64,000 nt of DNA, from IMG/VR virus record IMGVR_UViG_3300036795_000241, positions 1 through 64,000 of that record; one strand, given 5' to 3'. Origin of the DNA: a virus. The translations under genes were made by a program, and so were the position numbers. Below, one piece after another: positions 3,001-31,153 of this stretch. The notes beneath the pieces were generated by a model. It had not been told where the DNA came from and searched no databases. It saw only the letters and a program-made list of their open reading frames with translations. Position 1 is the stretch's first letter, and every line of letters begins with the position of its first letter.

Positions 3001-3649
3001 CGACACCGACGGACGGTATCTTCCCCAGTGCACCGCCCCACAGCGTTACCTCGCGCGTGAGGAGCCCGAATGCGCCGCCCTGCTGATTCGCCTGCTGCGT
3101 ACTCTGCCGCTGCCAATCGAGGAACGAACGGAAGCCGTTACCGAGGTTCCCGAGGCTATTGTCGAGATTGTCCGCCGAGCGGCCGGCTTTGTCCGTCTCC
3201 GTGGCGAAATCGGTCAGCTGCTGATCGGCCTGCCCGGCGCCACTTACGGCGAGATTCACCGTTTGCGTACTATCGCCGGGCTGCCAGTTCATCAAGCTTT
3301 GCAGCGAGTTAATCGCACCCGTACTTACCGTCGGGTTGATTACGAGGCTCTGCTCGAGATTGCGCCGCAGCTGATCGTATAGTGCGTCCGTGCCAACTAG
3401 CTTAGTATCGGCAACGGAGGTATCGAGGTTAAGCTTGTTCGGAGCATTTACGTCCGCCTGGAATACGTCCAGGCCAGCCTGCATCTGCGCCAATCGCGCT
3501 TGCGCAATCGACGTATCGAGGCCGAGCTTAGCTTGGTATTCGTTGTTCTCGAACGACATACCTTCGCTGCGGGCCGCCGCCAGATCGGCTTGAAACTGCT
3601 GCCGATTAAGAATCAGCCTCGCTTCAATTGCGCCCGCATCGAATGCCAC
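1..3649 (-). CDS. Tape measure protein (3' end lies outside the window)
   Basis: GTG at 3649 overlaps the upstream stop and reads MAFDAGAIEARLILNR, a typical TMP N-terminus. Ala/Gly-rich and directly downstream of the tail chaperones; contains a GGVIPGYGGGDIVPLLAEPGE segment. It is absent from the ORF track, consistent with no stop in the window. Confidence 0.9.
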   Translation of the reverse strand, partial: MAFDAGAIEARLILNRQQFQADLAAARSEGMSFENNEYQAKLGLDTSIAQARLAQMQAGLDVFQADVNAPNKLNLDTSVADTKLVGTDALYDQLRRNLEQSLVINPTVSTGAINSLQSLMNWQPGDSTQTVNLAVSGAGQADQQLTDFATETDKAGRSADNLDNSLGNLGNGFRSFLDWQRQSTQQANQQGGAFGLLTREVTLWGGALGKIPSVGVVPLWHIALDAVFESLIAVAAASAALTVGLIAMEPAAHDIYTQMLSIHDTSKALDQTIPPLTGHLHELQQAVAPGTLEIFGGALNLVNKQGSTFSTVAQQVVGGFDTWIAKLDIWANSQSHMGGILESGVGFLHQFMQIIDNVGLAFSNLIKADPGTAHFLGDVLVGASQLLDVITKLPTPILYSVLALHSFMLWGGLAASGITNLATAMFGGVQATARLAAGLGLFGDAGRAALVPLEDLRSKAGQLGSETSKTGGILGAMGALPLWGWAIVGAAAIGGLVWWMTQADSATHSFISSLDTGLGQLNASQAILAINTDIKSLDEQITQVPVHLAQANQAFANSTNQLGHGVGLVVSSFKDIGDVTQWGSGLSQWFHGLTEAAAGFWNSTVKAFGATKLQLGQGSDVQAYTGEIIKLSGEQDRLFHETGNLISQGFTYSQSLALMDLANVKAGDSYGVMKQKVDNLITGYSAMSIQGGILASAVDAVTFAAEQQQSQITAITGGWDAFMKTVSGGDSAFIKYEQSIAKVGTSAGVAGSSITGLNSQSLTLRSDWQSSLSSAGALYDALANQASAAGLGAKGTNMLSQAGKDLVAQLIPMAKGSKENTAQLYAFAQLAGYRGPDSLKSLTGWLGNTKNAAKNLDDITTTLTVDSSNLTQDMKNLANALNNNLNSAMAAAIFQAGGGQKAFDNFATVMKNTPHNITAVQNSAKGLARELLTTLGNTDQAKNEFIVFAEKLNLSHDDAERLWNSIVKGAQTMNQTHGARASLNADIQGILSRAPSAKNDMNILAAAVQKHGATAITYGPARAQLITDLEKSGVKAQTATGLVDDYIKKLQHIPPNENTNIGLTGKGTWSVQQQQVFAAGSSNLPSPLKRALGGVIPGYGGGDIVPLLAEPGETVVSKETSQVLAPVFAAAGVPGYAAGGVVGQFGGSVPGLGNWTLNEYSLSVKAMIQSVEDAIKGGVQTAQEAAANSAYLGNSGATTHSAQVAQAYAASILNQY

Positions 3650-27628: not shown

Positions 27629-27657
27629 TTGACAGACTTGTCAGTTTCTGCTAGACT
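27629..27657 (+). promoter_or_regulatory. Housekeeping-sigma promoter
   Basis: TTGACA-17-TAGACT. Confidence 0.8.
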
Positions 27658-28556
27658 GGGTGCTGTGGGAGAGCACCAGGAGGCAGCAGTGGAGCGTCAG
27701 GTAACGATGCAGCTAAAAGTCCGGCGCGCGATTGACGACGAGGGGCTGGGCTTTGACGGTGACGGACCCAAGCCGGAGCCGATCAACGAGATCACCGATT
27801 GGCTGATCGCGAAAGGTTACACCGTCGAGCAGTTCCAGCACGACAGCGGAGTTGCGAACCGGTCCGTACTATTTCACCTGTACGACCTGCTGTGCCGAGT
27901 GCTGTAGAAGGGGAACGAAATGTACACGTGGGGCACGATGACGATAAGCGGAATTTACGGATCACCCGTGGTCGCGGATACCCTCGAAGAGGCGATCAAG
28001 AAGGCGGAAGCTATCGGCGAAGTGGTCCTGGACGCCACCGATGTGAACGGCGAGCACACCCTGATCGTGGCCGAGTAGGAGGCAGCTAATGTCGCAGCGT
28101 TTTGTGATATTCAAGAACGGCGTAGAGGTCATCGAGGACGGTGCTCCGGTTGCACTCGATCGTTACGAGTCCGCTCAGATGTACGCCGGAATGGTCGATG
28201 GCGAAGTTGCGCAGCTCGTGTGGTCCCGCGAGGACGAGTCCTGATGCCGACGCCGACCGGACTGCCGAAAGTTGGCGAAGTGTGGGAGCGTACGTGGAGT
28301 CAACCTCCGGCATGGCATCCCGACACCGTTCGATTCGTCGTGCTGGAACGCGGAAGTGGCTCCTACTGGTCGCTACGCGTATACGTAGCCAACGCCAACC
28401 CGGGTAACGAACGACAGCTATGGGTCGACTCGTCCTACTGGTTCTCGCGTGGTCAGCTCAAATACCTCGAACCCGCCGGTCCGGAGACGAAGAAGAAGCT
28501 AGGACTCGCGTAGGCGAACCGCCACACCCGGAGGCGATAGCGTATCGAATTCCGAG

Positions 28557-28586
28557 TTGACAAGTGTCGATGCGGGATGCTATACT
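28557..28586 (+). promoter_or_regulatory. Housekeeping-sigma promoter (leaderless start)
   Basis: TTGACA-18-TATACT, ATG 6 nt downstream. Confidence 0.8.
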
Positions 28587-28805
28587 ACAGGCATGGAGCC
28601 AGCAGAGGTATTGCGTCAGCACGGTCTGGAAAGCCACCACAACGCGAAGGGAGAGCTAGTCCTAGCAAAGCAGGAAGCCAGTGACCTAGCGGAGTACCTA
28701 GAGCTAATGTACCACGAGCTCTTTAAGCTAGGGCTGTGTCCGAACGGTTCACCGCTATTCCGCGAGGAGATCCGCCACACCCGGGGGCGTTAGCGTTTCG
28801 CGAGC

Positions 28806-28834
28806 TTGACAGTCACGGAGTTTTCTGCTATACT
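28806..28834 (+). promoter_or_regulatory. Housekeeping-sigma promoter
   Basis: TTGACA-17-TATACT. Confidence 0.8.
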
Positions 28835-29151
28835 GGTGCTGTACGCCAGCGAAAAGTTACGACACAGCTAGGAGACCGCAATGCCGCGACAGGACGCCGA
28901 AGTGAAGTACTATCTCGAAAGCGATAGCGGACTATCCGACCAGGACAAGCTCGCAATCCCGTTCACCGTTCAGCGGCTGCAGGCGATCGAGCAGGCCCTC
29001 CGGGAGCAGGTCGTTACCGAGCGGTCGCAGGGCGACGAAGAAACCGCCTGGGCACTCGAGCGTGACGCCGACCTGATCGCGGAGAATCTCGAACGACACG
29101 GCTGGCTCTAGGTAATCCGCCACACCGCTGCGCCGGCCGCTACTCACCCGC

Positions 29152-29180
29152 TTGACAGGCTGGGCAGTCTCTGCTAGACT
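29152..29180 (+). promoter_or_regulatory. Housekeeping-sigma promoter
   Basis: TTGACA-17-TAGACT. Confidence 0.8.
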
Positions 29181-29498
29181 GGTGCTGTGGGCACAGGTGG
29201 AGCGACCAGGAGGGTCAGCAGCATGCAGGAGATCGTCGAATGCCCGTTCTGCGGAACGGAGTGCGTGATCGTTCAGGGTTACTGCAGCGAGTGCGACCAC
29301 GAGATCACCGAGGAGGACGCAAAGTGAAGATGGCATACGTTTACGATGACGCCGACAACCTGCAGGAAGCGTTCCTCGTTACCCCGCAGCAGTTCGCCGA
29401 CCTGGAGGCGGACCTGCCCGAGGGCTGGAGCGTTTCGGAGAAGGGTAAGTAGCGATGAAGCAGGCAGCCACACCCGGAGGCGCAGCTACTCCGCGGAC

Positions 29499-29527
29499 TT
29501 GACAGTCGCGGGGATCTCTGCTAGACT
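29499..29527 (+). promoter_or_regulatory. Housekeeping-sigma promoter
   Basis: TTGACA-17-TAGACT. Confidence 0.8.
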
Positions 29528-29561
29528 GGGTGCTGTGGATGAAGCAGCGACCAGGAGGACC

Positions 29562-29816
29562 ATGACTGAGACCAATTACGCCGTTGCTCCGGGCGAGTAC
29601 CTGGAGGAGTGGATCGATGACCGCGACCTCTCTCGGCAGCACGTCGCCGACCTCCTGGGCTTCAGCCGCAAGCAGGTCAACGAGATCGTAAACGGGCGTG
29701 CGCCGATAACCGGCCACATCGCAATCCGGCTGAAGCGGGTTGTCGGCATTCCCGCCGACACCTGGTTGCGGTACGAAGCGTCCTACCGAGCCGACCTGGC
29801 CCGTATCGCCGAGTAG
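29562..29816 (+). CDS. HigA-like XRE helix-turn-helix protein
   Basis: PGEYLEEW..LSRQHVADLLG.SRKQVNEIVNGRAPIT...AIRL....G.....WL pattern. Confidence 0.8.
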   Translation: MTETNYAVAPGEYLEEWIDDRDLSRQHVADLLGFSRKQVNEIVNGRAPITGHIAIRLKRVVGIPADTWLRYEASYRADLARIAE

Positions 29817-29828
29817 GAGGAGCAACTA

Positions 29829-30125
29829 ATGCCGCAGCAGAACGAAGAGCACGTTCCCGACAGTGCAGTTCTCGCCGAAATCCTCGAGGACATGCAGGCG
29901 CACGAGGAGGAGGAGGAGGACGATGTCGAAATCTCCTTCGCCGATGCACTGCGTTCGTACCTCGGCAACCTGAGTGACGATGCGCATGACGCCGGAACGG
30001 ATGTCGAGTACATTCTCGGACTCGCCGGTCGCGTCAACGCGATCAAGCGTATCCACACGCAGCTAGGGATGCCGACCGAAGACCCGCTCTACTTCCCGAC
30101 CTTCGATGAGCTAATGGAGATGTGA
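29829..30125 (+). CDS. Acidic hypothetical protein
   Basis: GGAGG RBS. Confidence 0.65.
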   Translation: MPQQNEEHVPDSAVLAEILEDMQAHEEEEEDDVEISFADALRSYLGNLSDDAHDAGTDVEYILGLAGRVNAIKRIHTQLGMPTEDPLYFPTFDELMEM

Positions 30126-30126
30126 G

Positions 30127-30432
30127 ATGCCGATATTCACCTGGTCGCATCGGCCAGCCGCCGTTCCGGGCAGCGCACTGGAGGCGACGCTGTACATCGC
30201 CCGCGCGCAGTTCGCCGTTGAGCGCTTTATCGCCGGCGACCCGCACTTCACGTGGATCGCGGACTACGCCACCCGTATCTGCGACGATTGCAGTGAGATT
30301 CAGACCGCCGCCGACGGGAATCACGTGGTCTACCGCGATCTGCTGATCGTCGGGTGCGAAGGCTACCGCCACCTTCCGCCGCAGTTCCTCGGGCTGGACG
30401 GTAGCAACTGGGAGGACTGGACGAAGTCGTAG
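30127..30432 (+). CDS. Hypothetical protein
   Basis: Coupled ORF with GGAG RBS. Confidence 0.6.
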   Translation: MPIFTWSHRPAAVPGSALEATLYIARAQFAVERFIAGDPHFTWIADYATRICDDCSEIQTAADGNHVVYRDLLIVGCEGYRHLPPQFLGLDGSNWEDWTKS

Positions 30433-30499
30433 GTGACACCGAGGACGAAACGCCGAAAGGCGTCCACGGCTTAGGTGGCCGTGCCGACGAGTCCGTCAC
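30433..30499 (+). ncRNA. Type II hammerhead ribozyme (core CCGACGA variant)
   Basis: GGAC-GAAA-CGCC(gaaa)GGCG-TC-CACGGC(ttaggtg)GCCGTG-CCGACGA-GTCC; three perfect stems with the core nucleotides in place; strictly intergenic. Confidence 0.85.
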
Positions 30500-30523
30500 T
30501 TTCCGCGACAGGAGCAACACGCA

Positions 30524-31090
30524 ATGAGTACTACGCCCACACCGAAGAGGCACCACCGCATCCGCAACACCGTGATTGGCGGTATCGTTATCGGCGGCTT
30601 CGCCATCGCGATGGCGAACACTGGCGGAAGCAGCCAGTCGCCGACCGCCAAGTCCTCCGTCGCGCCCGTTTCCGTGTGCAAGACGCCGAGTCCCGTGAGC
30701 CCGGGAACGGCGTGTGCGCAGCCGAAGAAGGCGTCCGCCACACCCGCGGCGGTTACCGTTCCGACCACTCCGCCTCCGGCCCCGGCGCCGAAGTCCGACA
30801 CCGTAACGTACCAGGTGACCGGCACCGCTCCGGCCGATGTCACGTACGGACCGTCCGGCTCGAACTCGACCGGTTCCGTCCCGATGAGCACGACGGTGAA
30901 CATCCCGGACAAGGCGCCGGCGTACTACGCGATCAGTGCGCAGCTGCAGGGCGACGGCGCCGTGAGCTGCGTGATCCGGGTCAACGGAAAGGCGGTCTCG
31001 GTCGGGCAGGCGTCCGGCGGCTACAACATCGCCACCTGCGAGATCACCCAGGGCCTGTTCGGCGGCTGGGAGGACGCGAACGCTGGCTGA
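30524..31090 (+). CDS. MmpS-like membrane-anchored protein
   Basis: One TM segment, Pro/Ala linker, VTYQVTG..VSCVIRVNGK..ATC domain. Confidence 0.75.
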   Translation: MSTTPTPKRHHRIRNTVIGGIVIGGFAIAMANTGGSSQSPTAKSSVAPVSVCKTPSPVSPGTACAQPKKASATPAAVTVPTTPPPAPAPKSDTVTYQVTGTAPADVTYGPSGSNSTGSVPMSTTVNIPDKAPAYYAISAQLQGDGAVSCVIRVNGKAVSVGQASGGYNIATCEITQGLFGGWEDANAG

Positions 31091-31124
31091 CTGCGCCCCG
31101 GCTCCGTAACTTAGACCAAGCAGC

Positions 31125-31153
31125 TTGACATCCGCGAAGAACTCTGCTAGACT
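31125..31153 (+). promoter_or_regulatory. Housekeeping-sigma promoter
   Basis: TTGACA-17-TAGACT. Confidence 0.8.

What the first reader, a model, noticed from the sequence alone, without database searches (positions are those of the whole stretch)
30433..30499. Intergenic type II hammerhead ribozyme with a U4C core variant and a loop-bulge contact
Seen: stem II GGAC/GTCC, extended by GTGAC/GTCAC around an ACCGA bulge; GAAA; stem III CGCC-gaaa-GGCG; cleavage triplet GUC (cut after 30464); stem I CACGGC/GCCGTG; core CCGACGA in place of CUGANGA. Loop I (TTAGGTG) can pair with the bulge region (CACC). It begins on the base after a stop codon and ends about 25 nt before the MmpS-like gene. Known: hammerhead consensus and the need for stem I-II tertiary contacts. 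Inference: self-cleavage splits the polycistronic early mRNA; strict motif searches would miss this variant.
Basis: partly seen in the sequence, partly recalled or inferred. Interest (0 to 1): 0.8.

Follow-up and report, generated by a model that had tools for sequence, protein, structure and literature searches.

The report
Phage hammerhead ribozyme, natural C4 variant
A small self-cutting "hammerhead" RNA motif sits between two genes of an uncultured soil phage; this kind of element and its one odd core letter (C for U at position 4) are already known, the C recurs in many phage hammerheads, and whether this copy still cuts is untested.

Summary
Window 30433-30499 (+) folds as a three-way junction in the type II hammerhead arrangement, with 12 of 13 conserved core letters present and CCGACGA in place of CUGANGA.

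It is not a chance match. No comparable match appeared in 300 shuffled genomes. A covariance model built from 59 other phage hammerheads, none from this window, scores it at 58.9 bits (E 6e-13). Close relatives with the canonical core exist in Streptomyces phages and in one IMG/VR contig.

The U4C change is not unique. Across two sequence classes of phage type II hammerheads, about 8% of distinct sequences carry C4. Almost no other transition occurs in that core box. The C4 copies keep intact, covarying stems and sit before ribosome-binding sites just as U4 copies do.

U4C is also a published natural variant: it weakens cleavage in vitro but is still viable in a viroid. This scan has reported C4 phage hammerheads before on other DNA.

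Self-cleavage after C30464, which would separate a three-gene message from a weakly MmpS-like membrane-protein message, is the likeliest function but is inferred, not shown. The proposed loop-bulge contact scores no better than chance.

Verdict: a new member of a known kind, of modest interest.

The parts
30127..30432 (+). Upstream ORF (101 aa, no family match). Its stop codon UAG at 30430-30432 abuts the element.
30433..30437 (+). 5' strand of the stem II extension helix (GUGAC). It pairs with 30495-30499, and the pairing can extend to 7 pairs into the stop codon.
   Evidence: Equivalent helices with different sequence occur in two related hammerheads of contig L017: GGUCC/GGACC and GACCC/GGGUC.
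30438..30442 (+). Five-nt 5' bulge ACCGA. Together with C30437 it gives CACC, complementary to GGUG of loop I. This is a possible tertiary contact, not shown.
   Evidence: The class-wide test is not above chance.
30443..30446 (+). Stem II strand GGAC. It pairs with GUCC at 30491-30494.
30447..30450 (+). Core G12 A13 A14 A15.1 (GAAA).
30451..30462 (+). Stem III hairpin CGCC-GAAA-GGCG with a GNRA tetraloop.
30463..30464 (+). U16.1 and C17. The predicted cleavage is between 30464 and 30465.
   Evidence: Position in the hammerhead consensus. Cleavage itself is not tested.
30465..30483 (+). Stem I hairpin CACGGC-UUAGGUG-GCCGUG.
   Evidence: Stem I covaries at all six pairs across 59 relatives. It is identical to stem I of the U4 hammerhead at L017 2783-2836.
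30484..30490 (+). Core box CCGACGA = C3 C4 G5 A6 C7 G8 A9. C30485 stands where U4 is normally conserved.
30491..30494 (+). Stem II strand GUCC.
30495..30499 (+). 3' strand of the stem II extension (GUCAC). CACUU at 30497-30501 is also complementary to loop I AGGUG.
30510..30514 (+). Shine-Dalgarno AGGAG of the downstream gene, 9 nt before the ATG.
   Evidence: It is unpaired in the centroid fold of the predicted 3' product.
30524..31090 (+). Downstream ORF (188 aa) with an N-terminal membrane anchor and a C-terminal domain of a widespread actinobacterial/metagenomic family. It is weakly MmpS-like.
   Evidence: (phrog_8241)
29499..29527 (+). Nearest upstream sigma-70-like promoter match (TTGACA-17-TAGACT). 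It is the likely start of the transcript that carries the element.
   Evidence: consensus scan only.
31125..31153 (+). Next promoter-like site, just after the downstream ORF.

Best explanation
Window 30443-30494, with a stem II extension spanning 30433-30499, encodes a genuine type II hammerhead ribozyme. It is of the kind that sits between genes of phages and prophages, and it carries the natural U4C core variant.

It is transcribed as part of a rightward polycistronic message, probably from the promoter-like site at 29499-29527. It most likely folds into the three-way junction and cuts itself between C30464 and C30465.

Cleavage would leave the upstream three-gene RNA ending in the stem III hairpin with a 2',3'-cyclic phosphate. 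The downstream MmpS-like membrane-protein RNA would begin with a 5'-OH and the stem I hairpin, 59 nt before its start codon and with its Shine-Dalgarno free. The two halves could then decay and be translated independently.

What is shown and what is inferred:
- Shown: the motif, its fold, its membership of the family by profile, and the recurrence of C4 in nature.
- Inferred: that this copy cleaves (probably more slowly than a U4 copy), and the consequences for mRNA stability.
For: Anatomy:
- The anatomy is exact, with 12 of 13 conserved core letters and 20 uninterrupted base pairs.

Family membership:
- Covariance model R1 was built from 59 U4 phage hammerheads, none from the window. It scores this site at 58.9 bits (E 6e-13). 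The next best hit in 64 kb scores 13.7 bits.
- BLAST finds 82-83% identical intergenic elements in Streptomyces phages Wentworth, phiRKBJ001 and Yara. These have canonical CUGACGA/CUGAGGA cores and covarying stem I. Rfam Hammerhead_II scores the Wentworth and phiRKBJ001 copies at 25.7 bits, below its gathering score.
- The closest relative (L017 2783-2836) has an identical stem I and a U4 core. It sits 436 nt upstream of a C4 copy (L017 3272-3322) that shares the window's CCGACGA core and extended stem II.

C4 is tolerated in nature:
- I scanned IMG/VR allowing any transition at all six conserved letters of CUGANGA.
- The GGAC/GUCC class gave 69-70 canonical and 3 C4 distinct sequences, and nothing else.
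- The AGUC...GACAGG class gave 78-83 canonical, 10 C4, 1 G8A and 1 U3/A8 double.
- C4 copies have several different stem I sequences with intact pairing and a covarying pseudoknot.
- About 15 more distinct C4 copies occur in metagenomes, most followed by a Shine-Dalgarno and a start codon.

Literature (PMC3088659):
- Type II hammerheads are common between prophage genes.
- U4C 'considerably decreases activity in vitro' yet supports viroid infectivity in vivo.
Against: - No cleavage assay or RNA end data exist for this or any phage C4 copy.
- U4 lies in the CUGA U-turn. A deep mutational scan of a type III hammerhead found low activity for mutations there, with no rescue other than the C3-G8 swap (PMC9901934).
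- This genome has only this one hammerhead. The related Streptomyces phages have 6-8 each, so a lone relic cannot be excluded.
- When 146 nt of context are folded, stems I and III persist. Stem II then competes with an upstream GGAC-containing stretch.
- A stabilising stem I-II contact is not demonstrated.
Confidence: 0.65

Rival explanations
1. It is a hammerhead-derived element that no longer cleaves at a useful rate. It would be either a recently inactivated relic or a structured RNA kept for another reason, such as hairpins that protect mRNA ends or bind a protein.
For: U4 mutations strongly reduce activity in vitro (PMC3088659 section 8 and Discussion; PMC9901934). It is the only hammerhead in this genome. 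Nothing here measures activity.
Against: - A decaying copy should also collect stem mismatches and other core changes. This one has none.
- The single deviation falls on the one core position where a transition recurs in nature. There are 13 C4 against 1 G8A, and none at G5, A6 or A9, among about 165 distinct sequences.
- C4 copies elsewhere keep covarying stems and pseudoknots and the usual position before ribosome-binding sites.
Confidence: 0.28
2. It is an intrinsic terminator or attenuator hairpin cluster between two transcription units that happens to resemble a hammerhead.
For: GC-rich hairpins are followed by UUU at 30500-30502. The next promoter-like site lies about 600 nt downstream.
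Against: - The terminator scan finds nothing here, and the U tract is only three bases.
- A terminator would not need the GAAA and CNGANGA cores in the right places.
- It would not match a hammerhead covariance model at E 6e-13.
- The downstream gene has no promoter of its own between 30433 and 30524.
Confidence: 0.04
3. It is a chance resemblance in GC-rich intergenic DNA.
For: The hammerhead motif is small, and relaxing one core position raises the false-positive rate. Perreault et al. warn of this.
Against: No comparable match appeared in 300 shuffled genomes. There are homologues at 82-83% identity with canonical cores. The covariance model E-value is 6e-13.
Confidence: 0.01

Closest known systems
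Type II hammerhead ribozymes between genes of phages and prophages (Perreault et al. 2011, PMC3088659; Rfam RF02276 Hammerhead_II)
   Same: - The same circular permutation: stem II open, stems I and III capped.
- The same core apart from position 4.
- Intergenic, on the sense strand, just upstream of a ribosome-binding site in a phage operon.
- Sequence-level homologues with canonical cores occur in Streptomyces phages and IMG/VR contigs.
   Different: - C instead of U at core position 4.
- Stem II has 4 bp plus a 5-bp extension beyond a 5-nt bulge, instead of the short 2-3 bp stem II with a loop I-3' tail pseudoknot of the Rfam consensus.
- No Rfam hit at any threshold.
- A single copy in the genome rather than several.
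Natural U4C hammerhead of a viroid (Ambros & Flores 1998, as cited in PMC3088659)
   Same: The same single substitution in the catalytic pocket of an otherwise intact natural hammerhead. It is reported to reduce in vitro cleavage but to remain functional in vivo.
   Different: The viroid hammerhead processes a replicating circular RNA and has a different topology and host. I could not read the original paper (not held), so the details rest on Perreault et al.'s summary.
The two hammerheads of IMG/VR contig IMGVR_UViG_3300025875_000029 (L017 2783-2836 with U4; 3272-3322 with C4)
   Same: - The same sub-architecture: GA-ended 5' bulge, GGAC/GUCC stem II and a 5-bp extension helix that covaries (GUGAC/GUCAC, GGUCC/GGACC, GACCC/GGGUC).
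- One copy has the window's stem I, the other the window's CCGACGA core.
- Both precede genes with N-terminal hydrophobic or signal-like segments.
   Different: The flanking proteins are unrelated to the window's. There are two copies flanking one small gene rather than a single copy. The loop I sequences and possible tertiary partners differ.

Membership tests
Hammerhead ribozyme, type II | Three helices around a junction, in the order stem II strand - GAAA - stem III hairpin - cleavage site - stem I hairpin - CUGANGA - stem II strand | tested here: met
   Direct reading. The minimum-free-energy and centroid folds give exactly this junction.
Hammerhead ribozyme, type II | Conserved core letters C3 U4 G5 A6 N7 G8 A9, G12 A13 A14, A15.1-U16.1 and H17 | tested here: not met
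   12 of 13 are present, and position 4 is C (30485) instead of U. The exception is a documented natural variant (PMC3088659). It recurs in about 8% of distinct sequences in two phage hammerhead classes. I therefore file the element as a variant member rather than exclude it.
Hammerhead ribozyme, type II | Significant score against a family profile | tested here: inconclusive
   Rfam RF02276 gives no hit at the gathering score or at E<=10. Its canonical-core homologues also fall below the gathering score, at 19.6-29.2 bits against 37. My own model R1, built from 59 phage type II hammerheads without the window, gives 58.9 bits, E 6e-13.
Hammerhead ribozyme, type II | Helices supported by compensatory changes among relatives | tested here: met
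   All six stem I pairs covary in the 59-sequence alignment: 99.3% of cells are paired and 145 cells have double changes, with 0 of 500 shuffles reaching that. Window stem I CACGGC/GCCGUG compares with CGCCGG/CCGGUG in Wentworth and CACGGG/CCCGUG in Yara. The extension helix covaries in three relatives. Stems II and III are invariant by the way the set was collected.
Hammerhead ribozyme, type II | Tertiary contact between stem I and stem II regions (pseudoknot or loop-loop) needed for fast cleavage | tested here: inconclusive
   Candidates exist: loop I GGUG with bulge CACC, or AGGUG with 3' tail CACUU. In the GGAC class, complements of 4 bp or more occur as often in mismatched controls (29%) as in real pairs.
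Hammerhead ribozyme, type II | Site-specific self-cleavage giving 2',3'-cyclic phosphate and 5'-OH ends | not testable with these tools
   No RNA run holds the sequence. This needs a bench assay.

The most novel reading that the evidence does not exclude
C4 hammerheads could be a deliberately attenuated or conditional subclass that phages use to set how much of a polycistronic message is cut.

In this copy, the hexamer UAGGUG occurs twice: once overlapping the upstream stop codon (30430-35) and once in loop I (30472-77). Both copies can pair with the same 3' tail, GUCACUU.

A ribosome terminating at UAG would free that tail to pair with loop I, giving the canonical type II pseudoknot geometry. 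That would couple cleavage to translation of the upstream gene.
Probability: 0.08. Interest if true: 0.6.

Novelty: new member of a known kind. Interest (0 to 1): 0.3.

Why it matters
For this genome, it marks a likely RNA-processing site that splits a phage operon just before a membrane-protein gene.

More generally, hammerheads with C at core position 4 form a sizeable minority of phage hammerheads, and curated models (Rfam) miss them. Annotation pipelines therefore undercount these ribozymes.

An assay of a few natural C4 copies beside their U4 neighbours would show whether C4 is neutral, slows cleavage, or changes metal or pH dependence. That is a modest gain, not a new principle.

Tried and rejected
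- Rfam cmscan gave no hammerhead hit on the whole window at the gathering score, on the whole window at E<=10, or on 30380-30560 at E<=10.
- The search for related loci with the downstream protein in viral contigs found no relative. Orthologous loci in close relatives of this phage could therefore not be compared.
- The search for homologous proteins found only domain-level relatives, 42-67% identical over half the protein.
- The look-up of sequencing runs listed no RNA holder. It found only one DNA run from a soil metagenome, which is probably the source sample.
- Read laying on that run showed one identical contig and no variant letters. This is uninformative about expression or cleavage.
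- Loop I-flank pseudoknot enrichment in the GGAC class was not above the mismatched-pair null.
- I tested for an association of C4 with a 'CGA' bulge plus stem II extension. It is too thin to claim. Only the window, the two L017 copies (one U4, one C4) and L034 (U4, no extension) carry CGA-GGAC in IMG/VR. One metagenome C4 family has CCGA-GGAC without a clear extension.
- The original U4C paper (PMC147498) and Nelson & Uhlenbeck 2008 (PMC2271363) are not held.
- An alternative core register giving CUGA does not exist in 30478-30494.

Full report
**What is there**

The window belongs to a complete 75,683-bp IMG/VR virus record from a soil metagenome. Its replication proteins are only about 25-27% identical to those of cultured phages.

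At 30433-30499 on the + strand the RNA reads:

GUGAC ACCGA GGAC GAAA CGCC GAAA GGCG U C | CACGGC UUAGGUG GCCGUG CCGACGA GUCC GUCAC

This is the type II hammerhead layout.
- The UAG stop of the upstream ORF is at 30430-32.
- The predicted cut is after C17 = 30464.
- The ATG of the next ORF is at 30524, preceded by AGGAG at 30510-14.

The 67 nt fold on their own into exactly this three-way junction (-27.2 kcal/mol, z -2.2). The complementary strand folds less well.

**Is it more than chance?**

- I wrote a descriptor for type II hammerheads that allows one mismatch in the CUGANGA box. It finds this site and nothing else in the whole genome.
- In 300 dinucleotide-preserving shuffles it gave 0.017 loose hits per genome, and none with stems as good as the real one.
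- I aligned 59 non-redundant U4 hammerheads from viral contigs, none from this window (A1), and built covariance model R1 from them.
- R1 scores 30443-30494 at 58.9 bits, E 6e-13. The next best hit in the 64 kb scores 13.7 bits.
- In that alignment all six stem I pairs covary: 99.3% of cells are paired and 145 have double changes. No shuffle of 500 reached this.

**Relatives**

blastn against cultured phages finds only this short stretch, at 82-83% identity. The matches lie in unannotated intergenic DNA of Streptomyces phages Wentworth, phiRKBJ001 and Yara.
- These copies carry canonical CUGACGA or CUGAGGA cores, GNRA or similar loops on stem III, and a stem I that differs by compensatory changes.
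- Rfam Hammerhead_II scores the Wentworth and phiRKBJ001 copies at 25.7 bits; across these loci its sub-threshold hammerhead hits range from 19.6 to 29.2 bits, below the gathering score of 37.
- R1 finds 6-8 hammerheads in each of the three genomes, all on one strand within a few kb.

The nearest relatives are two hammerheads on IMG/VR contig 3300025875_000029.
- One (L017 2783-2836) has the window's stem I, CACGGC/GCCGUG, and a U4 core.
- The other, 436 nt downstream (3272-3322), has the window's CCGACGA core.
- All three share a 5-bp extension of stem II beyond a 5' bulge ending in GA. The helix sequence differs each time: GUGAC/GUCAC, GGUCC/GGACC and GACCC/GGGUC. This supports the extension as a real helix.
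- In the window the extension can reach 7 pairs. About 1% of mismatched flank controls do as well.
- The flanking proteins of the two phages are unrelated.

**The U4C question**

Rfam finds nothing in the window at its gathering scores, nor at E<=10 on either the whole window or the local 181 nt.

The variant is neither new nor rare.
- Perreault et al. [quoted passage not shown]
- I scanned IMG/VR with patterns that fix stems II and III and leave the core open. Results are counted as distinct sequences.

| Class | Canonical | C4 | Other |
|---|---|---|---|
| GGAC/GUCC (the window's class) | 69-70 | 3, window not counted | none |
| AGUC...GACAGG | 78-83 | 10 | 1 G8A; 1 U3/A8 (the known compensatory double) |

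- For the GGAC/GUCC class, widening the pattern to allow any transition at all six conserved letters returned exactly the same 83 loci.
- In the AGUC...GACAGG class there was no G5A, A6G, A9G or lone C3U.
- GC pressure alone would also favour A6G and A9G, and these are absent.
- The C4 copies fall into at least eight different stem I lineages. Their pairing is intact, and in the second class the loop I-tail pseudoknot covaries.
- Some C4 copies differ from U4 copies by only a few letters.
- A metagenome scan added 21 loci, about 15 distinct sequences, of well-formed C4 copies. Most are followed by a Shine-Dalgarno and a start codon.

The natural distribution therefore says C4 is tolerated under selection. 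It does not say how fast such ribozymes cut.

On the other side, a deep mutational scan of a type III hammerhead found low activity for mutations in the CUGA turn, with no rescue except the C3-G8 swap (PMC9901934).

**Tertiary contact**

- The ACC...GGU part is also present in the Wentworth, phiRKBJ001 and L033 copies.
- Across 79 distinct members of the class, however, complements of 4 bp or more between loop I and the 5' flank occur in 29% of real pairings and 29% of mismatched pairings. The 3' tail does no better.
- Loop I AGGUG can also pair with CACUU at 30497-30501. That is the geometry of the published type II pseudoknot, but it competes with the extension helix.

The contact is therefore open.

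**Context and likely function**

The region from about 27.6 kb rightward is a + strand block of small genes.
- It holds six strong sigma-70-like promoter matches (TTGACA-17/18-TAKACT with an upstream TG), against 1.3 expected.
- The element lies in the unit between the matches at 29499-29527 and 31125-31153.
- It comes after an HTH/antitoxin-like gene (phrog_1381), a 98-aa acidic ORF and a 101-aa ORF.
- It comes before a 188-aa protein with an N-terminal anchor.
- That protein's C-terminal domain is widespread in actinobacterial and soil metagenome proteins, and is sometimes fused to DUF732.
- A profile of the family weakly matches MmpS5 structures (E 0.006), and 3 of 28 members touch PF05423.
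- No terminator-like site separates the genes.

If the ribozyme cuts, two products result:
- The upstream RNA ends in the stem III hairpin.
- The downstream RNA starts with a 5'-OH and the stem I hairpin, with its Shine-Dalgarno unpaired in the centroid fold.

From established knowledge of bacterial mRNA decay (5'-end-dependent RNase E/J entry, and 3' hairpins blocking exonucleases), this would uncouple the fates of the two halves. That step is inference. Perreault et al. state that the biological role of such prophage hammerheads is unclear.

**Weighing**

- That this is a real hammerhead-family element is close to certain.
- I put the chance that it still self-cleaves at a useful rate at about 0.65, and a non-cleaving relic or a structure kept for another role at about 0.28.
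- In favour of cleavage, the copy has no defect other than the one recurrent variant.
- Against it, this is the only hammerhead in the genome and its activity is untested.
- In a 146-nt context the fold keeps stems I and III, but stem II competes with an upstream GGAC-containing stretch.

**Comparison and novelty**

It works like, and is a variant member of, the phage/prophage type II hammerheads described in 2011.
- It fails one strict consensus feature (U4) and the Rfam threshold.
- It passes the architecture, covariation and independent-profile tests.
- The C4 variant is published.
- Earlier follow-ups in this scan reached the same reading on other phage genomes. My counts here were made independently and agree.

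I rate it a new member of a known kind, with interest 0.3.

**Limits**

- No RNA data exist for this phage.
- The original U4C paper could not be read.

Noticed in passing
window 27629-31153 (+): Six near-identical sigma-70-like promoter matches on the + strand within 3.5 kb: TTGACA, a 17-18 nt spacer, TATACT/TAGACT, each with an upstream TG. Only 1.3 are expected from shuffles. Each sits in front of one or a few small genes.
   Followed up: partly
window 29571-29816 (+): A small HTH protein matching phrog_1381 ('plasmid antitoxin with HTH domain', E 8e-12). It is the first gene of the transcription unit that carries the hammerhead.
   Followed up: partly
window 30419-30432 (+): The last codons of the upstream ORF read GGACGAAGUCGUAG. 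This resembles the GGACGAAAC start of the ribozyme 24 nt downstream. In a 146-nt fold this stretch competes with the true stem II strand for GUCC.
   Followed up: no
window 30430-30435 and 30472-30477 (+): The hexamer UAGGUG occurs twice, once overlapping the upstream stop codon and once in loop I. Both copies are complementary to the 3' tail GUCACUU.
   Followed up: partly
Streptomyces phages Wentworth, phiRKBJ001 and Yara (MH019216.1 52.8-59.1 kb; MT936332.1 53.2-59.2 kb; MH019215.1 52.1-58.0 kb): Each genome carries 6-8 unannotated type II hammerheads on one strand, between small genes (model R1, 28-65 bits). All those checked fall below Rfam's gathering score.
   Followed up: partly
IMG/VR loci L356-L360: One hammerhead, found in five contigs, has the core UUGAUAA. 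This is the U3-A8 compensatory swap of the C3-G8 pair.
   Followed up: no
window 30524-31090 (+) and relatives P0001-P0080: The C-terminal domain of about 95 aa has the consensus TVTYVVTGS..ADVTYGP.GS...GSVPM....YYAISAQLQG.G.VSC.I.VDGK...A.GGYNIA.CEI. It is very common in soil and actinobacterial metagenome proteins, sometimes fused to DUF732, and has no Pfam family of its own. It is only weakly similar to MmpS5.
   Followed up: partly
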